The notes under the pieces are model-generated. The model was not told the DNA's origin. It saw nothing but the letters and a program-made list of their open reading frames with translations, and searched no databases. DNA of 64,000 bases, from contig JBFWNU010000001.1 of assembly GCA_050250895.1 (NCBI GenBank), forward strand, positions 2,214,210 through 2,278,209. Reading direction: 5' to 3'. Positions 49,332 through 55,500 of the stretch are shown piece by piece (the first letter of the stretch is position 1; each line of letters opens with the position of its first letter). Both the position numbers and the translations under genes were made by a program. This DNA comes from Vulcanimicrobiota bacterium. Its GTDB lineage: Bacteria > Vulcanimicrobiota > Xenobia > Xenobiales > JADMJV01.

Positions 49332-50199
49332 AAGCGGCTTCGTGGCCCTGGTCGGCAAGCCCAATGTGGGGAAGTCGACTCTGATCAACCGTCTGGTGGG
49401 AACCAAGGTCGCCATCACCTCCTCCAAGCCCCAAACGACCCGGCATCGGGTGCTGGGCGTCATGCACGGTCAGGAGTATCAGATCGTGCTGGTGGACACT
49501 CCCGGACTCATGCAACCGCGCCACGCCCTCGGCCGCAAGATGGAGAAATGGGCCCTCGAAGAGAGTCGCGAGGCGGACCTGGTGTTGTTCCTGGTCGAGT
49601 TGACGCACGCCCCCACCGCCGAGGACCGCTTTGCGGCCGAGCATCTGGCCCCGCTGGGAGACCGGGTCTGGTTGGTGATGAACAAGCTCGACCGGTGCAA
49701 GGACGAACAGGTGGCCGAGCAGTACCAGGCGTTGGGCGGCTATCCGCGCAGCTTCCAGGTTTCCGCCCTCGAGGGGCAGGGGTTGGAACAGCTTACCCAG
49801 GCTTTGTGCGAGGTCTTGCCCGAAGGCGACCCCTTTTTCCCCCCCGACCAGGTGACCGACCAGAATCGGGCTCTGTTGGCCAGCGAGGTGATCCGCGAGA
49901 AGGTCCTGCATCTGACCCGCCAGGAGATTCCTCACGCCGTGGCCGTGGTGGTCGACGAGCTGCGCCCCGCCGACAAACCCGACATGCTGTATCTGAGCGC
50001 CTATCTCTATGTAGAGCGGCCCAATCAAAAACGCATCCTGATCGGAAAGAACGGCCAGTTGCTAAAGTCCATCGGCGCCGAAGCCAGACTCGAACTCGAG
50101 CAACTATGGGGGCAACGCGTCTTTCTCGAGCTATGGGTCAAAGTGAAGGAAGGCTGGCGCGACCGCGAGGACTGGCTCCGCTCCCTCGGCTATGAATAA
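49306..50199 (+). CDS. era: GTPase Era
   Basis: G1 GKPNVGKST, TTR, DTPG, NKLD and a C-terminal KH domain. Confidence 0.85.
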   Translation: MIGWNKMYRSGFVALVGKPNVGKSTLINRLVGTKVAITSSKPQTTRHRVLGVMHGQEYQIVLVDTPGLMQPRHALGRKMEKWALEESREADLVLFLVELTHAPTAEDRFAAEHLAPLGDRVWLVMNKLDRCKDEQVAEQYQALGGYPRSFQVSALEGQGLEQLTQALCEVLPEGDPFFPPDQVTDQNRALLASEVIREKVLHLTRQEIPHAVAVVVDELRPADKPDMLYLSAYLYVERPNQKRILIGKNGQLLKSIGAEARLELEQLWGQRVFLELWVKVKEGWRDREDWLRSLGYE

Positions 50200-50640
50200 G
50201 TCGGCCCAGCGGCGCGGCGCGAAGCGCCGTAGGGAATGACGAGAAGGCCGCATCCTGTGCAGTTTCAGCTAGTGGTCATACCTTCTCGTCGTTCCCGTAG
50301 AGCCGCGGCCGGGCCGACGCCCATACGAAGTCGGCCCAGCGGCGCGGCGCGAAGCGCCGTAGGGAATGACGAGAAGGCCGCATCCTGTGCAGTTTCAGCT
50401 AGTGGTCATACCTTCTCGTCGTTCCCGTAGAGCCGCGGCCGGGCCGACGCCCATACGAAGTCGGCCCAGCGGCGCGGCGCGAAGCGCCGTAGGGAATGAC
50501 GAGAAGGCCGCATCCTGTGCAGTTTCAGCTAGTGGTCATACCTTCTCGTCGTTCCCTTAGAGCCGCGGCCGGGCCGACGCCCATACGAAGTCGGCCCAGC
50601 GGCGCGGCGCGAAGCGCCGTAGAGTGGCAGCGGCCGAGCC
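50200..50640. repeat. 130-bp tandem repeat, 3.3 copies, each containing a 16-bp-stem hairpin
   Basis: Copies start at 50200, 50330, 50460 and 50590 (partial), with 1 mismatch among the full copies. Each has the inverted repeat GGGAATGACGAGAAGG...(33 nt)...CCTTCTCGTCGTTCCC and a second IR, GCCGGGCCGAC/GTCGGCCCAGC, spanning the unit junction. Confidence 0.85.
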
Positions 50641-50718: not shown

Positions 50719-51024
50719 ATGATCACTACTTACGAAGCCCTGGGCATGATTGAAACCAAAGGCCTGGTGGCGATGATTGAAGCTGCCGATGCTATGGTCA
50801 AGGCGGCCAACGTGAAACTGATCGGTTACGAGAAAATCGGAGCCGGCTATGTGACCGCTCTGGTTCGCGGCGATGTGGCTGCCGTGCGTGCGGCTACCGA
50901 TGCCGGCGCTTCTGCCGCCCGCAAAGTGGGCGAGCTGATCGCCGTCCACGTTATTCCCCGTCCCCACAAGGATCTCGACGATGTGCTACCGATCGCCCCT
51001 CCCCGTGAGAAAGCCGGGAAGTAG
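50719..51024 (+). CDS. BMC-H hexameric microcompartment shell protein (PduA/EutM family)
   Basis: [30 protein letters not shown]...[17 protein letters not shown] is the canonical BMC domain. Confidence 0.85.
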
Positions 51025-51043
51025 TCCAGGCTCGAGCCATTAG

Positions 51044-51781
51044 ATGGACCCCGCTCTGATCGATACGATCACCGAGCTGGTCCTGCGCGAACTGCAAGGC
51101 AATCAGCCGGCGGGGCCGCCCGCCCCTCCCAAACAGGGCAAGAAGGTGCTCTTGTGCCCGGGGCCGGGCGCCGGCAGCTCGGCGATCTGGCAGGGGCTGG
51201 CTCAGCTCTCGGACATTGGCTGGCAAGCCGTGGCCTGGCCCGGCTTTGACACTCATCGCCTCGAGCGCGCGCTGGGCCGCAAGGTGCCGACTTCGGACCC
51301 TCCCACCTGCTGGGAACAGCTGGTTCAAGGGGTAGAGGCGGTCGTCTTGCCCAGCCTCGATCTGGGTGGGTTGGCCAGCCTGGCCTTGCTGCTGACCGAC
51401 CGCCCCCCGGCCGGGGCCGGCGTGGCCGGGATCGTGCTCGGCAAGCCGGTGCTGGCCCTCAACGAGGGGCTGGAGCGCTATCGACGCCACTCGGCTCGCT
51501 TGCCGGGCGGGTTTTTAGATGTCTTCGAGCGTCACTATCGAGGGGCCGAGAGTATGGGCGTCACTTTTTTAGGGGTGGGGGAGCTGGCCGGGGCTCTGGC
51601 CGGTCCGGGGGCCAAGAAGGTCACCGCCACCTCGACCGGGCGCGACGTGGTCACTCTGGAAGACCTCGAGGCGGTGCGGCGGCGTGGCCAGACGGTGCTG
51701 GAAGTGTCGGCCGGGGCCATCGTCACCCCGCTGGCCAGCCAGGCCGCGCGAGAGATGGGGATTGAGGTGAAGACTCGATGA
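51044..51781 (+). CDS. BMC-associated protein of unknown function with encapsulation-peptide-like N-terminus
   Basis: The N-terminal amphipathic helix ([18 protein letters not shown]), then a P/G linker, resembles the N-termini of the downstream AldDH and DeoC. The C-terminus ends [24 protein letters not shown]. Confidence 0.4.
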
Positions 51782-52083
51782 TCTTGGCGAAAGTCGTGGG
51801 TACAGTGGTCTGCACCCAAAAAGAGCCGCGCCTCGACGGGCTGAAGTTGCAGCTGGTCTGCCCGCTTTCGCTAGCCGATATGGCCGTCGACGGCAAGCCG
51901 CTGGTAGCCGTCGACGCCGTCGGGGCCGGACCCGGCGAGGTGGTTCTGGTGGCCGCCGGCAGTTCGGCGCGCCAGACCGAGGCGACCCTCAACACCCCGA
52001 CCGATGCCGTCATTATGGGCATCGTCGATACAGTCGAAATGGAAGGCAAGACCGTCTTCCAGAAACATCGGGCCAAGGAGTAG
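51778..52083 (+). CDS. BMC-P pentameric vertex protein (EutN/CcmL/PduN family), copy 1
   Basis: [27 protein letters not shown]...[22 protein letters not shown] is the EutN/CcmL fold signature. Confidence 0.8.
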
Positions 52084-52086
52084 GCA

Positions 52087-53523
52087 ATGGATATCGACCG
52101 CGACGTCATTCGCAAGATTGTGGAAGAGGTGGTGCGCCAACAGATCGGCTCAGGCTCGGCGCCACGCTCGGTCGAAGTTCCGGTGGCCAGTGGTCGCTAC
52201 GGAATCTTCACTTCGGCCGACGATGCGGTGGCCGCAGCCGGCGAGAGCTACAAAGCCTGGTTCTCGATGAGTCTCGAGACCAAAGCTGCCTGTGTCCAGG
52301 CGATGCGAGACGTTTCTCTGGCCCAGGCCCGTCCCATGGCCGAATTGGCTCATGCCGAGACCGGTCTCGGTAGGGTCGAGGACAAAGTCAACAAGAATCT
52401 GCTCCAGGTGGCCAAGACGCCCGGACTAGAGGATGTCAAGCCTCAGGTGTTTACCGGAGACCGCGGTCTGACCCTGGTCGAGAAGGCTCCCTTCGGGGTG
52501 ATCTGCTCGGTCACGCCCACCACCAATCCGGTGGCGACCATCATCAACAACTCGATTTCGATGGTGAGCGGCGGGAACGCGGTGGTCTTCAATCCCCACC
52601 CGCGCGCCAAAGGGTGCTGCAATCAGATGATTCAGCTGCTCAACCAGGCCATCCACAAGGCCGGGGGCCCTCCCACCCTGCTCACTTCCGTGGCCGAGCC
52701 TACCATCGAGACCTCGCAGGCCCTGATGAAGCACAAGGGAGTGCGTTGCTTGGTGGTGACCGGCGGTCCGGGCGTGGTGGCCCAGGCCATGGCCAGTGGC
52801 AAGAAAACGATCGCGGCCGGTCCCGGCAATCCGCCGGTGGTCGTCGACGAGACGGCCGACCTGCGCCAGGCTGCCCGCGATACGGTGGCCGGCTCGTCGT
52901 TCGACAACAACGTGATGTGCACGTGCGAGAAAGAAGTCTTCATCGTCGATAGCGTCTTTCGCGAGTTCAAAGAGCATATGCTCAATAACGGCTGCTACGA
53001 ACTCACTCCTCGCCAGCTCGACGAGCTCACCCGGGTCATCTTCCAACCACCGCCGGTGGGCAGCACCAAGACGGTGCTCAACCGTGACCTCATCGGTCAG
53101 CACGCCAGCGACATCGCCCGCACCATCGGGCTTGACCTGCCCCGCGACACGCGGCTTTTGATCGCCGAGACTCCCTTCGAGCATCCGCTGGTGCTCAAAG
53201 AGCAGATGATGCCGGTGCTGCCGCTGGTTCGTTGTCGTGATGTCAACGAGGCCATCGAGCGCGCCGTCCAGGCCGAGGGCGGGCGCTATCACACGGCCGT
53301 GATGCATTCGCGCAACATCGAGAACCTGTCGCGCATGGCCCGGGTGGTCAACGCCAACATCTTCATCAAGAACGGGCCCAACTACGCAGGTCTGGGCTTC
53401 GGAGGCGAAGGCTTTACCACCATGACCATCGCCGGCACCACCGGTGAAGGGGTGACCTCGGCTCGCACCTTCACTCGCGAGCGCCGCTGCGCCCTCATCG
53501 ACTATTTCAGGATTCTAGGCTAG
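52087..53523 (+). CDS. CoA-acylating aldehyde dehydrogenase (PduP/EutE family)
   Basis: FGVICSVTPTTNPVATIINNSISMVSGGNAVVFNPHP, plus the catalytic Cys region and an N-terminal encapsulation-peptide-like helix (MDIDRDVIRKIVEEVVRQQ). Confidence 0.8.
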   Translation: MDIDRDVIRKIVEEVVRQQIGSGSAPRSVEVPVASGRYGIFTSADDAVAAAGESYKAWFSMSLETKAACVQAMRDVSLAQARPMAELAHAETGLGRVEDKVNKNLLQVAKTPGLEDVKPQVFTGDRGLTLVEKAPFGVICSVTPTTNPVATIINNSISMVSGGNAVVFNPHPRAKGCCNQMIQLLNQAIHKAGGPPTLLTSVAEPTIETSQALMKHKGVRCLVVTGGPGVVAQAMASGKKTIAAGPGNPPVVVDETADLRQAARDTVAGSSFDNNVMCTCEKEVFIVDSVFREFKEHMLNNGCYELTPRQLDELTRVIFQPPPVGSTKTVLNRDLIGQHASDIARTIGLDLPRDTRLLIAETPFEHPLVLKEQMMPVLPLVRCRDVNEAIERAVQAEGGRYHTAVMHSRNIENLSRMARVVNANIFIKNGPNYAGLGFGGEGFTTMTIAGTTGEGVTSARTFTRERRCALIDYFRILG

Positions 53524-53532
53524 GAGGTCCCC

Positions 53533-53994
53533 ATGCGGGTTGTAATCGGTAGCGATCACGGAGGCTACGAGCTCAAGAACGAGCTGGCCGGGCTGATTCG
53601 AGAGCTGGGCCACGAACTGATCGATTTCGGCACCCACGGACCCGACCCGGTCGACTATCCCGATTTCGCCTTACTGGTGGGCAAGGCCGTGGCCAACGAC
53701 CCCGATCACACCCTCGGCATCGTGGTCGATGGGGCCGGCTGCGGCAGCGCCATCACCGCCAATAAAGTGCCGGGGGTGCGTGCGGCTGCCTGCTACTGCA
53801 CGGCCACGGCCAAGAACTCTCGCGAGCACAACGACGCCAATGTCTTGACCCTGGGTAGCAAGATTACCGGGTCCGAGGTGGCCAAAGATATCGTGCGCAC
53901 CTGGCTCGGCACCCCTTTTGCCGGCGGGCGCCACTCGCGCCGAGTCGAGAAAGTGCTCTTGATCGAGCGACGTTTTGCCAAGGAGGCGCCGTAG
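53533..53994 (+). CDS. rpiB: RpiB/LacA/LacB-family sugar-phosphate isomerase
   Basis: MRVVIGSDHGGYELK ... GAGCGSAITANK ... the ribose-5-phosphate isomerase B fold. Confidence 0.8.
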   Translation: MRVVIGSDHGGYELKNELAGLIRELGHELIDFGTHGPDPVDYPDFALLVGKAVANDPDHTLGIVVDGAGCGSAITANKVPGVRAAACYCTATAKNSREHNDANVLTLGSKITGSEVAKDIVRTWLGTPFAGGRHSRRVEKVLLIERRFAKEAP

Positions 53995-54261
53995 TTGTTT
54001 CTGGGTCGGGTTTGCGGGACGGTGGTGGCCACCCATCGAGTAGACAACCTCGACGGAGCGACCTTTCGTGTGGTGGTGCCTGTGAATCACGACGGCTCGC
54101 CTTACGGTAAACCCTTCGTGGCTGTCGACAACGTCTCGGCCATGACCGGCGATCTGGTCTATCTGGTCAAGGGCAAAGAGGCCATCATCCCCTGGAAGCG
54201 CTCGGATATGGCGCCCATTGATGCCGCCATCGTGGGGTTGGTGGATGGGATGGATATCTGA
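53995..54261 (+). CDS. BMC-P vertex protein, copy 2
   Basis: MFLGRVCGTVVATHRVDNLDGATFRVVVPV...VAVDNVSAMTGDLVYLVKG. Confidence 0.75.
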   Translation: MFLGRVCGTVVATHRVDNLDGATFRVVVPVNHDGSPYGKPFVAVDNVSAMTGDLVYLVKGKEAIIPWKRSDMAPIDAAIVGLVDGMDI

Positions 54262-54554
54262 TGCTCTATGCACGGATTTTAGGAAGTTTGTGGGCCACCG
54301 CTCAGGTGGCGGGCTTTGAGGGTAGATCTCTTAAGCTGATCGAGCCTGTCGATGCGCGGACCGGTAAGGGCGCGGGGGACACGCTGCTGGCGGTCGACCT
54401 GGTCGGGGCGCGCAAGGGTGACCACGTTCTGGTCGTCTACGAGGGCAGCTCGTCGCGTCTGGCCATGGGCAGTCAGACGACGCCCTGCGAGGCGATCGTG
54501 GTCGGCATCGTGGATCGGCTCGATTTGGAAAGTGAGGAATCAGGTGGACATTGA
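54261..54554 (+). CDS. BMC-P vertex protein, copy 3
   Basis: [30 protein letters not shown]...[24 protein letters not shown]. Its start overlaps the copy-2 stop by 1 nt. Confidence 0.75.
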
Positions 54555-55500
54555 AGCGATTGTAGCCAGAATCACCAGGGAAGTGGTGGAAGAACTCCAG
54601 CGCCCGCAGGCGGCCTCGTCCCCCTCTGCCGAGGTGGACCGCACCGCCCCTCCAGGACGTCTGCGCGTGGCCGAGGGCTCGTCTTCGAACGGTTCAGGCA
54701 AGGTCTGCATGGAGCGTCTCACCGGCGAGTGCGCCGGAGTTGGCTGCTGTGCTCAGTTGCTTCCCGAGCGGGTGCGGGCCGTGATCGAGTCCGGGGCCGA
54801 CCGGGTGGGCAATTCCCCCGGGGGGGTGGTGGACGGGGCCGACATCGCCGCCCGTATCGACCACACTTTGCTCAAAGCCGACGCTACCCGCCAGGAAGTC
54901 CTCGAGCTGTGCGACGAGGCCCGCACCCACCGGTTTGCCTCGGTCTGCATCAACCCGGCTTTCGTGGCCACGGCCGCCGACGCTCTGCGGGGCACCGGGG
55001 TCAAAGTTTGCACCGTCGTGGGCTTTCCGCTGGGAGCCACCACGACCCTCACGAAAGTCACCGAGACCCGAGATGCGCTCGCCAACGGGGCCGACGAGAT
55101 CGACATGGTGATCAACATCGGAGCCCTCAAGAACAACCAGGATGACCTGGTCGAATCCGATATCCGCGAGGTGGTGGCTGCCGCCGGCGGGCGCATCACC
55201 AAAACGATTTTCGAGACGGCCATCCTCTCGGACGACGAAGTGGTGAGGGCCTGCCTGTTGGCCAAGCGGGCCGGAGCAGATTTCGTCAAGACCTCGACCG
55301 GATTCGGTCCAGGCGGAGCCACTGTGCATCACGTGGCTTTGATGCGCCAGACGGTGGGACGCTCCATGGGAGTCAAAGCCTCGGGCGGGGTGCGCGATCT
55401 CGAGACGGCCCGCCAGATGATCGAGGCGGGAGCCACCCGAATCGGGGCCAGTGCTTCCGTCAAGATCGTGCGCGGTGAGCAAGGCAGCGGCAACTACTGA
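54544..55500 (+). CDS. deoC: Deoxyribose-phosphate aldolase (DeoC) with N-terminal encapsulation-peptide-like extension
   Basis: DeoC core ([11 protein letters not shown]...[10 protein letters not shown]...[14 protein letters not shown]...KTSTGF). A GTG start at 54544 is preceded by AGGAAT and begins [19 protein letters not shown]. The 5' part of the track ORF is out-of-frame overlap with BMC-P copy 3. Confidence 0.75.

What the first reader, a model, noticed from the sequence alone, without database searches (positions are those of the whole stretch)
51044..55500. Shared amphipathic N-terminal helices (encapsulation-peptide-like) on three cargo proteins, including an unknown 245-aa protein
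AldDH (MDIDRDVIRKIVEEVVRQQIG), DeoC ([21 protein letters not shown], after re-calling a GTG start) and the unknown protein 51044..51781 ([20 protein letters not shown]) begin with closely similar ~18-aa amphipathic helices followed by Pro/Gly/Ala-rich linkers. That is the architecture of BMC encapsulation peptides. It predicts that all three are lumen cargo and makes the unknown protein a candidate new SPU-BMC core component. I could not place its C-terminal motif [25 protein letters not shown] in a family from memory.
Basis: partly seen in the sequence, partly recalled or inferred. Interest (0 to 1): 0.6.

Follow-up and report, generated by a model that had tools for sequence, protein, structure and literature searches.

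The report
PduM-like shell-core linker in SPU microcompartment
The three N-terminal targeting helices are real, and the "unknown" 245-aa protein is a distant relative of PduM, the protein that helps attach enzyme cargo to the shell in bacterial microcompartments; it has a degenerate flavoprotein fold and a tail that matches the shell-binding end of EutQ.

Summary
Observation confirmed. AldDH (52087), DeoC/DERA (GTG 54544) and ORF 51044-51781 each start with a ~18-aa amphipathic helix followed by a Pro/Gly/Ala/Ser-rich linker. A profile of the unknown's N-terminus picks out the DeoC N-terminus from the six-frame window (20.3 bits, E 1.6e-5).

The encapsulation peptides (EPs) on SPU (sugar-phosphate-utilising BMC) AldDH and DERA are already published (Dwyer 2024).

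The unknown is not an orphan. It belongs to a large, shell-gene-linked family:
- 956 cluster representatives.
- 60 of 60 fetched loci have shell genes nearby, and 51 of 60 have a BMC-P gene immediately downstream.
- The family is related to NCBIfam TIGR02536 and Pfam PF02441.

Its C-terminal motif is the same ~45-aa module as EutQ residues 2-45. Experiments assign that stretch to shell binding. Enterobacterial PduM is a shortened homologue (hhalign 94.5%, E 7.8e-8) and occupies the same gene slot.

Best reading: an encapsulated shell-core linker, not a metabolic enzyme. The family assignment is firm. The linker function is inferred (about 0.5).

It is a new member of a known kind. The PduM / flavoprotein-fold / EutQ-module link did not turn up in the literature I could search.

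The parts
50719..51024 (+). BMC-H shell hexamer gene, the only BMC-domain gene in the 64-kb window
   Evidence: PF00936, E 2.3e-30. No other BMC-H hit anywhere in the window.
51044..51781 (+). PduM-like / TIGR02536-related protein of 245 aa (the 'unknown')
   Evidence: The same slot between BMC-H and BMC-P is kept in orthologous loci.
51044..51100 (+). N-terminal encapsulation-peptide-like amphipathic helix (residues 1-19, [19 protein letters not shown])
   Evidence: AF2 H3-19. V13 is one of only two invariant columns across 86 relatives. The peptide aligns to the PduM N-terminal region (PduM 1-20): hhalign 93.9%, P 1.5e-7.
51101..51136 (+). Pro/Gly/Ala-rich linker (residues 20-31), highly variable in length among relatives
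   Evidence: pLDDT below 50 at residues 19-30. Relatives carry insertions of up to about 70 aa here.
51137..51604 (+). Rossmann-like HFCD/flavoprotein-fold domain (residues 32-187) with degenerate flavoprotein-type motifs
51482..51514 (+). Clade-specific conserved basic motif [11 protein letters not shown] (residues 147-157); function unknown
   Evidence: R147, R148, R152, P154 and G156 are invariant in the 9 closest homologues.
51638..51778 (+). C-terminal ~45-aa module (residues 199-245, [44 protein letters not shown]), homologous to EutQ residues 2-45 and to the PduM C-terminus
   Evidence: Profile against E. coli EutQ 2-45: 28.6 bits. EutQ-cupin protein in L066: E 1.5e-16. PduM C-terminus: hhalign 96.7%, P 3.5e-10.
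51778..52083 (+). BMC-P pentamer gene; its ATG overlaps the stop codon of the PduM-like gene
   Evidence: PF03319, E 7e-29. A BMC-P gene lies immediately downstream of the family gene in 51 of 60 loci.
52087..53523 (+). CoA-acylating aldehyde dehydrogenase (EutE/PduP type) with an N-terminal EP (residues 1-20, 52087-52146)
   Evidence: NF011927, 4.7e-192, covering residues 7-476. Hydrophobic moment 0.69 with a G/S/A/P-rich linker.
53533..53994 (+). RpiB-type sugar-phosphate isomerase with no N-terminal extension
   Evidence: PF02502 covers residues 3-141 of 153. The gene starts 10 nt after the AldDH stop, so there is no room for an extension.
53995..54261 (+). BMC-P pentamer gene 2
   Evidence: PF03319, E 1.5e-24.
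54261..54554 (+). BMC-P pentamer gene 3
   Evidence: PF03319, E 1e-20.
54544..55500 (+). Deoxyribose-phosphate aldolase (DERA) with a ~100-aa N-terminal extension: EP helix residues 1-19 (54544-54600), a linker, and a Cys-rich element
   Evidence: TIGR00126 deoC, 5.5e-84, covers only residues 102-309. EP profile hit of 20.3 bits. AF2 H3-18.
54706..54750 (+). Conserved C-x7-C-x4-CC motif inside the DERA extension
   Evidence: Alignment of orthologous extensions.

Best explanation
ORF 51044-51781 encodes the PduM-equivalent of a minimal SPU-type (sugar-phosphate-utilising) microcompartment. I read it as a low-copy structural protein that couples the enzyme core to the shell.

Proposed mechanism:
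- Its N-terminal amphipathic helix is of the same type as the helices on DERA and AldDH. It joins the EP-mediated cargo assembly.
- A flexible linker leads to a flavoprotein-fold body. In this clade the body has lost the motifs that other family members share with PF02441 flavoproteins, so it probably acts as a spacer or oligomerisation unit.
- A second flexible linker presents a ~45-aa C-terminal module. This module is homologous to EutQ H1/H2, which binds hexamer shell tiles.
- DERA and AldDH are packaged through their own EPs. RpiB has no EP here and probably rides in bound to DERA.

Shown by computation: family membership, fold, module homology, EP character, conserved gene position. Inferred: shell binding, linker role, loss of flavin binding.
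For: Family and context:
- TIGR02536 hit.
- 956 cluster representatives at E<=1e-3.
- 77 of 86 relatives hit TIGR02536 and 31 of 86 hit PF02441.
- All 60 fetched loci with a full-length family gene have shell genes. BMC-P is immediately downstream in 51 and BMC-H immediately upstream in 35.
- The family occurs in chemically different BMC types: SPU, a Sporomusa PDU locus where it sits between pduL and the BMC-P gene (the pduN slot), i.e. in the pduM slot, and a Cytobacillus locus with purine-type enzymes and no AldDH. That spread fits a generic assembly role rather than a pathway-specific one.

PduM homology:
- hhalign of the family against PduM gives 94.5%, E 7.8e-8.
- The parts are collinear: EP 93.9%, middle 23.6% (P 8.6e-4), C-terminus 96.7%.
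- PduM 1-23 is a proven targeting signal, and deleting pduM partly separates core from shell (PMC12108088; PMC9132943).

EutQ module:
- The module profile hits E. coli EutQ 2-45 and a EutQ-cupin protein at E 1.5e-16.
- Deletion and localisation experiments assign Salmonella EutQ H1/H2 (deletion of residues 9-41) to shell association. Other parts of that paper place the binding at the EutM/EutL shell proteins. H3/H4 binds cargo EPs (PMC12487888).

Minimal versions exist. Gemmatimonadota and Firmicute BMC loci encode proteins of about 105-130 aa that consist only of this module, a linker and EP-like helices. The middle domain is therefore dispensable for whatever the two ends do.

Degenerate motifs. 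Firmicute members keep FTGG[ST]IGL, VPVLTQNTAAK and NAADP. The window clade has [20 protein letters not shown] and LNEGLE at those positions.
Against: - No direct test of binding, localisation or flavin content was possible.
- In Salmonella, PduM co-localises with cargo rather than with shells when PduB 1-37 is missing, so shell binding by the PduM-type C-terminus is not demonstrated.
- The middle-domain match to PduM is weak on its own (23.6%).
- The clade keeps a strongly conserved basic motif, [11 protein letters not shown], plus invariant W49 and W60. These could form a ligand or catalytic site.
- The locus has no PTAC, alcohol dehydrogenase or PduS/MNdh, so a cofactor-recycling enzyme is otherwise missing.
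- The AF2 model rests on only 9 sequences (pLDDT 78.7).
Confidence: 0.5

Rival explanations
1. It is an active, encapsulated flavoenzyme. It would regenerate NAD+ or move electrons inside the compartment, filling the gap left by the absent alcohol dehydrogenase and PduS/MNdh.
For: HFCD flavoprotein fold. 31 of 86 relatives hit PF02441 and keep flavoprotein-type motifs. The locus lacks every known cofactor-recycling enzyme. PF02441 proteins in BMC loci have been proposed as electron acceptors (PMC11626177). A conserved basic motif is present.
Against: The window protein itself does not hit PF02441 even at E<=10. The motifs shared with PF02441 flavoproteins are replaced by non-conserved residues in this clade. 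The homologue PduM lacks half the fold and still functions structurally. The family also occurs in a BMC type without AldDH.
Confidence: 0.2
2. It is an encapsulated ligand-binding or regulatory subunit, for example binding a sugar phosphate or CoA through the basic [11 protein letters not shown] patch. It would modulate DERA or AldDH rather than tether core to shell.
For: Clade-specific invariant Arg, His and Ser residues. The gene sits in a sugar-phosphate operon.
Against: The motif is not conserved across the wider family, whereas the two terminal elements are. The family spans BMC types with unrelated substrates.
Confidence: 0.12
3. It works outside the shell, docking on the outer face through the C-terminal module as a cytosolic electron acceptor or adaptor.
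For: Sutter et al. 2024 suggest that some PF02441 proteins accept electrons from the BMC-T(SE) shell protein outside the shell.
Against: It carries an N-terminal EP of the same type as the lumenal DERA. PduM and EutQ localise inside. The locus has no BMC-T or MNdh to hand electrons out.
Confidence: 0.05
4. The shared N-termini are coincidental low-complexity helices and the ORF is not a real gene.
For: A high-GC genome yields many spurious ORFs.
Against: Homologues at 42-89% identity keep the same slot in several phyla. EP profile hit at E 1.6e-5. Confident AF2 fold.
Confidence: 0.01

Closest known systems
PduM (Pfam PF15953, NCBIfam TIGR04493), structural protein of the Salmonella/Citrobacter Pdu microcompartment
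   Same: N-terminal EP-like helix. C-terminal 'VVTALAR(D/E)AA..I(Q)LI' module. Gene immediately upstream of the BMC-P gene. Collinear profile-profile match (94.5%, E 7.8e-8). PduM has an experimentally shown role in core-shell coupling and a proven N-terminal targeting signal.
   Different: PduM is 163 aa and keeps only a remnant of the Rossmann-like domain. The window protein does not reach any PduM model on its own. It sits in an SPU-type locus, not a PDU locus.
NCBIfam TIGR02536 'eut_hyp' ethanolamine-utilisation protein, and the PF02441 'Flavoprotein' genes noted in BMC loci (Axen 2014; Sutter 2024)
   Same: Same overall architecture: flavoprotein-fold body plus the C-terminal ITPLA module, next to shell genes. 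77 of 86 relatives hit TIGR02536.
   Different: The window protein scores 32.5 bits against a cutoff of 152.6. It lacks the flavoprotein-type motifs kept by the Firmicute members. No function has been established for either group.
EutQ N-terminal region (Salmonella/E. coli), residues 1-99
   Same: EutQ residues 2-45 (H1/H2) are the same module as residues 199-245 here. EutQ combines it with a flexible linker and amphipathic helices, and it links shell to cargo.
   Different: In EutQ the module is N-terminal and is followed by a cupin acetate-kinase domain. The order of elements is reversed here, and the body is a flavoprotein fold.
HFCD flavoproteins (EpiD, PPC decarboxylase CoaC, UbiX, DmrB/AfpA, DpaB)
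   Different: 9-14% identity. The motifs that other family members share with PF02441 flavoproteins are not conserved here. The protein has extra N- and C-terminal BMC-specific elements. HFCD proteins are not BMC-associated.
SPU BMC encapsulation peptides on DERA, AldDH and RPI (Dwyer, Sutter, Kerfeld 2024)
   Same: DERA has an N-terminal helix plus an extra element, and AldDH has an N-terminal EP, as published.
   Different: RpiB has no EP here. The locus has no BMC-T. The PduM-like gene is not listed among SPU components in that paper's main text.

Membership tests
BMC encapsulation peptide | Terminal amphipathic alpha-helix of about 15-20 aa | tested here: met
   AF2 H3-19 in the unknown and H3-18 in DeoC. 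Hydrophobic moments 0.57, 0.69 and 0.83 against a background mean of 0.40.
BMC encapsulation peptide | Separated from the body by a poorly conserved flexible linker | tested here: met
   pLDDT below 50 after each helix. Linker length varies by up to about 70 aa among relatives. 55-60% P/G/A/S.
BMC encapsulation peptide | Extension absent from homologues not associated with BMCs | tested here: met
   The housekeeping deoC model TIGR00126 covers only residues 102-309. In the PDB profile search the longest alignments to HFCD structures begin at family-profile positions 23-32, downstream of the N-terminal helix. For AldDH, Pfam Aldedh starts at residue 42.
BMC encapsulation peptide | Sufficient and necessary for targeting into the shell | not testable with these tools
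   Needs GFP-fusion and shell co-expression experiments. Shown only for the homologous PduM 1-23 (PMC12108088).
PduM family (PF15953 / TIGR04493) | Sequence reaches the family model | tested here: not met
   No PduM model hit for the window protein. Only 3-4 of 86 relatives hit weakly. Homology is seen only profile to profile.
PduM family (PF15953 / TIGR04493) | N-terminal signal helix plus the conserved C-terminal VTALAR-type module | tested here: met
   hhalign on the parts: N-terminus 93.9%, C-terminus 96.7%.
PduM family (PF15953 / TIGR04493) | Gene immediately upstream of the vertex (BMC-P/PduN) gene | tested here: met
   The stop at 51781 overlaps the BMC-P start at 51778. Same arrangement in 51 of 60 loci. 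pduM slot in L030.
NCBIfam TIGR02536 (eut_hyp) | Score above the curated cutoff (152.6 bits) | tested here: not met
   32.5 bits, E 6.4e-8, aligned over residues 101-244 only. Related, but not an equivalog.
Pfam PF02441 Flavoprotein / HFCD | Rossmann-like HFCD fold | tested here: met
Pfam PF02441 Flavoprotein / HFCD | Sequence reaches the Pfam gathering score | tested here: not met
   No hit for the window protein at E<=10. 31 of 86 relatives hit at E<=0.01; the Sporomusa member scores 36.6 bits against the 22.7-bit cutoff.
Pfam PF02441 Flavoprotein / HFCD | Conserved flavoprotein-type motifs (TGS-type loop after beta-1, PA[ST]ANT, PxMN). The motif definitions come from my own knowledge of the family. 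| tested here: not met
   The window clade has [20 protein letters not shown] and LNEGLE where Firmicute members have FTGG[ST]IGL, VPVLTQNTAAK and NAADP. Actual cofactor binding is untested.
EutQ N-terminal shell-binding module | Sequence homology to EutQ H1/H2 | tested here: met
   28.6 bits against E. coli EutQ residues 2-45. E 1.5e-16 against a PF06249-bearing protein.
EutQ N-terminal shell-binding module | Binds the BMC-H/BMC-T tile interface | not testable with these tools
   Shown for Salmonella EutQ only (PMC12487888). No multimer prediction was available here.
SPU (sugar phosphate utilisation) BMC locus | DERA with an N-terminal extension, plus AldDH, plus a BMC-P triplet | tested here: met
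   Criteria from PMC11585597.
SPU (sugar phosphate utilisation) BMC locus | At least one BMC-T shell gene, and an EP on RPI | tested here: not met
   One BMC-H and no tandem-BMC gene in the 64 kb. RpiB has no room for an extension. Satellite loci elsewhere in the genome cannot be excluded.

The most novel reading that the evidence does not exclude
PduM, TIGR02536 'eut_hyp', the PF02441-type 'flavoproteins' of BMC loci and this SPU protein form one superfamily descended from an HFCD flavoprotein. They share a two-ended targeting design: an N-terminal core-binding EP and a C-terminal shell-binding module that EutQ, EutT/PduO-type adenosyltransferases and some SPU RpiB proteins also carry. On this reading they are a near-universal shell-core tether of metabolosomes, translationally coupled to the vertex protein. 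The flavoprotein body decays step by step: intact in Firmicutes, degenerate here, truncated in enterobacterial PduM. This would contradict the published statement that PduM has no homologues outside Pdu compartments.
Probability: 0.4. Interest if true: 0.7.

Novelty: new member of a known kind. Interest (0 to 1): 0.5.

Why it matters
How cargo is attached to the shell is a central open question for metabolosomes and for engineering them. Separate linkers have been worked out case by case: PduB 1-37 and PduM, EutQ, CcmN, CsoS2. If one ~45-aa module plus an EP recurs on PduM-like proteins, EutQ, adenosyltransferases and RpiB across SPU, PDU, EUT and purine-type compartments, three things follow:
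- There would be a portable shell-binding tag.
- PduM's unexplained 'body' effect would have an explanation.
- The minimal eight-gene SPU operon of Eremiobacterota (one hexamer, three pentamers, three enzymes, one linker) would become an attractive reconstitution system.

For this particular finding, the practical result is that the 'unknown' gene can now be annotated.

Tried and rejected
- Pfam on the whole protein and on its halves gave nothing, apart from a sub-threshold HTH_91 hit on the C-terminal fragment (E 0.053, 13.7 bits against a cutoff of 27), even at E<=10. The placement came from NCBIfam and from scanning relatives.
I used the 9-sequence alignment A1 instead. This biases the fetched loci toward sequences that keep the GRDVVTxED and GxIVTPLA motifs.
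- The supplementary tables of Dwyer 2024, which list SPU components and EPs, are not held. I therefore could not check whether this family is listed there or which SPU subtype this locus belongs to.
- A glycine-rich GxGxG after beta-1 was considered as a dinucleotide-binding motif and rejected. Only 'CP' is conserved there among close homologues.
- The 130-bp tandem repeat upstream was checked against Rfam. Nothing came near a gathering score.
- The promoter and terminator scans gave nothing informative.
It retrieved genuine database PduM proteins (94% identity to Citrobacter), and only those retrieved sequences were used afterwards.
- The single-sequence AF2 model of DeoC is poor overall (pLDDT 49). 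I used it only for the N-terminal helix.

Full report
**What is there.** Window 50719-55500 holds a compact plus-strand operon:
- BMC-H, 50719-51024
- a 245-aa ORF, 51044-51781
- BMC-P, 51778-52083
- EutE/PduP-type acylating aldehyde dehydrogenase, 52087-53523
- RpiB, 53533-53994
- BMC-P, 53995-54261
- BMC-P, 54261-54554
- deoxyribose-phosphate aldolase (DERA)

The era gene lies upstream and recO downstream. An exact copy of the 245-aa protein is on record from a Vulcanimicrobiota (Eremiobacterota) MAG. DERA, AldDH, RpiB and a BMC-P triplet together are the signature of the sugar-phosphate-utilising (SPU) microcompartment (PMC11585597).

**Checking the observation.**
- The DeoC start at GTG 54544 overlaps the preceding BMC-P stop by 11 nt. 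Orthologues begin with M or V at the same position, which validates the start.
- AF2 with a 9-sequence alignment (pLDDT 78.7) gives helix 3-19 in the unknown, followed by a disordered stretch at 19-30.
- A single-sequence AF2 model of DeoC is poor overall. Even so, it gives helix 3-18 at pLDDT 70-72, followed by about 90 disordered residues.
- Hydrophobic moments are 0.57, 0.69 and 0.83. The mean over 50 other ORFs in the window is 0.40. The following 20 residues are 55-60% P/G/A/S, against 37% in the background.
- A 20-residue profile from 86 relatives of the unknown, run over the six-frame translation of the window, finds the DeoC N-terminus as the next-best hit (20.3 bits, E 1.6e-5). The AldDH helix shares the pattern but scores only 2.3 bits.
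- In related loci the same profile hits 29 of 35 DeoC ORFs.

The specific similarity is strongest between the unknown and DERA.

**What was already known.** Dwyer, Sutter and Kerfeld (2024) report that all SPU DERAs carry an N-terminal helix plus an extra element. They also report that SPU AldDHs carry an EP, N-terminal in every subtype except SPU6, and that start sites are often mis-annotated. That part of the finding is a rediscovery.

**Identity of the 'unknown'.**
- Pfam gives nothing apart from a sub-threshold HTH_91 hit on the C-terminal fragment (E 0.053). NCBIfam TIGR02536 ('eut_hyp', an uncharacterised ethanolamine-utilisation protein) matches residues 101-244 at E 6.4e-8, well below the model's cutoff.
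- A word-indexed search found only 9 close homologues. In every contig examined they sit in the same operon position.
- An exhaustive profile search found 956 cluster representatives at E<=1e-3. Most are about 250 aa and match from residue 4 onward.
- Of 86 aligned relatives, 77 hit TIGR02536 and 31 hit Pfam PF02441 'Flavoprotein'. Several also hit CoaBC, AfpA, DpaB or UbiX models.

PF02441 genes in BMC loci have been noted before. They have no established role and have been speculated to be electron acceptors (PMC4207490; PMC11626177).

**Are the flavoprotein motifs intact?** Firmicute members keep FTGG[ST]IGL after strand 1, VPVLTQNTAAK (the PASANT region) and NAADP. The window protein and its clade have [20 protein letters not shown] and LNEGLE at those positions, and the first region is not even conserved among close homologues. 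By sequence, this clade looks like a degenerate flavoprotein. The motif definitions come from my own knowledge of the HFCD family, and cofactor binding was not tested.

**The C-terminal motif.**
- I built a profile of residues 198-245 and ran it over all ORFs of 73 fetched loci. Besides the family itself it hits a Propionibacterium protein that has this module at residues 12-54 and a EutQ cupin (PF06249) at 123-215 (E 1.5e-16).
- It hits the N-termini of PduO/EutT-type adenosyltransferases.
- It hits the region between the EP helix and the RpiB domain in Planctomycetota and Acidobacteriota SPU RpiB proteins.
- It hits proteins of about 105-130 aa in Gemmatimonadota and Firmicute BMC loci that consist only of this module, a linker and EP-like amphipathic helices.
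- Against real E. coli sequences it aligns to EutQ residues 2-45 (28.6 bits) and, weakly, to EutT residues 2-47.
- For Salmonella EutQ, deletion and localisation experiments assign H1/H2 (deletion of residues 9-41) to shell association. Other parts of that paper place the binding at the EutM/EutL shell proteins. H3/H4 (62-99) binds cargo EPs, and residues 1-99 suffice for targeting (PMC12487888).

Its one characterised copy binds the shell.

**Link to PduM.**
- In a complete Sporomusa genome the family member (PF02441 hit, E 4.5e-9) lies between pduL and the BMC-P gene (the pduN slot) of a classical pdu operon, which is the pduM slot.
- I retrieved genuine PduM sequences and aligned 16 of them. 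Profile-profile comparison with the family gives 94.5% probability, E 7.8e-8, over 131 columns.
- Taken separately, the parts score as follows: C-terminal module 96.7% (P 3.5e-10), N-terminal helix 93.9% (P 1.5e-7), middle 23.6% (P 8.6e-4). They are collinear, and the middle aligns at the PASANT-region helix.
- PduM thus looks like a shortened member of the same family.
- PduM 1-23 is a demonstrated signal sequence. Deleting pduM partly separates core from shell and enlarges compartments. Unencapsulated PduM 'body' still perturbs shells by an unknown mechanism. PduM is described as having no homologues outside Pdu compartments (PMC12108088; PMC9132943).
- A full-text search for papers that mention both PduM and flavoprotein found nothing relevant.

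**Genomic association.** Sixty fetched loci hold a full-length family gene. All 60 have shell genes, 51 have a BMC-P gene immediately downstream, 35 have a BMC-H gene immediately upstream, and 26 have DeoC. A Cytobacillus locus with the family gene encodes purine-type enzymes and UbiX/UbiD but no AldDH. The family therefore tracks shells rather than a particular chemistry. One caveat applies: the loci were retrieved through two C-terminal peptide patterns, so the sample is not unbiased.

**Interpretation.** The best-supported reading is a PduM-like shell-core linker.
- An N-terminal EP, of the DERA type, engages the cargo assembly.
- A degenerate flavoprotein body sits between two flexible linkers.
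- A EutQ-H1/H2-type module at the C-terminus contacts the shell.

It is the only protein in this eight-gene operon that is neither shell nor assignable enzyme. Family, fold, module homology and synteny are shown by computation. Shell binding, loss of flavin and the linker role are inferred. My confidence in the linker role is about 0.5.

The main rival is an active flavoenzyme that recycles cofactors, which this locus otherwise lacks (about 0.2). The fold supports it. So does a clade-specific conserved [11 protein letters not shown] motif. Motif loss, PduM's truncation and the family's presence in chemically unrelated BMC types argue against it.

**Verdict.** Two of the three EPs are already published. 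The third sits on a protein that can now be placed as a new, divergent member of a known but poorly understood BMC family. The added value is the apparent unification of PduM, TIGR02536 and BMC 'flavoproteins', together with the shared EutQ-type module. This gives a testable mechanism for shell-core coupling.

Noticed in passing
window 50198-50622: A nearly perfect tandem repeat, 130 bp x 3.3 copies at 99% identity, fills the gap between era (ends 50199) and the BMC-H gene (starts 50719). No Rfam family comes near its gathering score. Its role (regulatory, mobile or assembly artefact) is unknown.
   Followed up: partly
window 54706-54750 (DeoC residues 55-69): The DERA N-terminal extension contains a C-x7-C-x4-CC motif within '[21 protein letters not shown]'. 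It is conserved in Eremiobacterota and UBP9 orthologues, and other lineages have different Cys-rich stretches. It could be a metal, Fe-S or disulfide element. It lies in the part of the extension, downstream of the EP helix, where Dwyer 2024 model two low-confidence beta-strands.
   Followed up: partly
window 53533-53994: RpiB has no N-terminal extension or EP here. It starts 10 nt after the AldDH stop. Published SPU RPIs carry an EP and a ~75-aa linker. In Planctomycetota and Acidobacteriota loci (L054, L058, L056) that 'linker' actually contains the same EutQ-type module found at the C-terminus of the PduM-like protein.
   Followed up: partly
window 1-64000; loci L008, L009, L014, L019: This lineage's SPU-type locus is minimal: one BMC-H, three BMC-P, and no BMC-T, PTAC, alcohol dehydrogenase or PduS/MNdh within the window or within +/-10 kb in relatives. 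It is syntenic between era and recO. How NAD+ and CoA are recycled is unexplained. Satellite loci were not searched.
   Followed up: partly
L037 9920-10300, L050 2092-2430, L031 12743-13057, L048 7935-8321: Short proteins of about 105-130 aa in Gemmatimonadota and Firmicute BMC loci consist only of the EutQ-type module, a linker and one or two EP-like amphipathic helices. They resemble the EutQ N-terminal region without the cupin domain, and may be minimal shell-core tethers.
   Followed up: partly
L045 1-20444 (Cytobacillus firmus NBRC 15306): A BMC locus carries a family member next to a xanthine/uracil permease, amidohydrolases, an isochorismatase, UbiX plus UbiD, adenine deaminase, a cyclase and DUF1989. 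No AldDH was detected. It looks like a purine or heterocycle-degrading BMC type.
   Followed up: partly
window 51482-51514 (residues 147-157 of the PduM-like protein): The basic motif [11 protein letters not shown], together with W49 and W60, is invariant among the closest homologues but not across the wider family. It may be a clade-specific binding site.
   Followed up: no
L003 3630-4961; L001 7832-10600: Some orthologous operons have an extra gene inserted between AldDH and RpiB. In L003 it is a 443-aa protein with no Pfam hit. In L001 it is a 922-aa spermine-synthase-domain protein on the opposite strand. Neither is present in the window.
   Followed up: no
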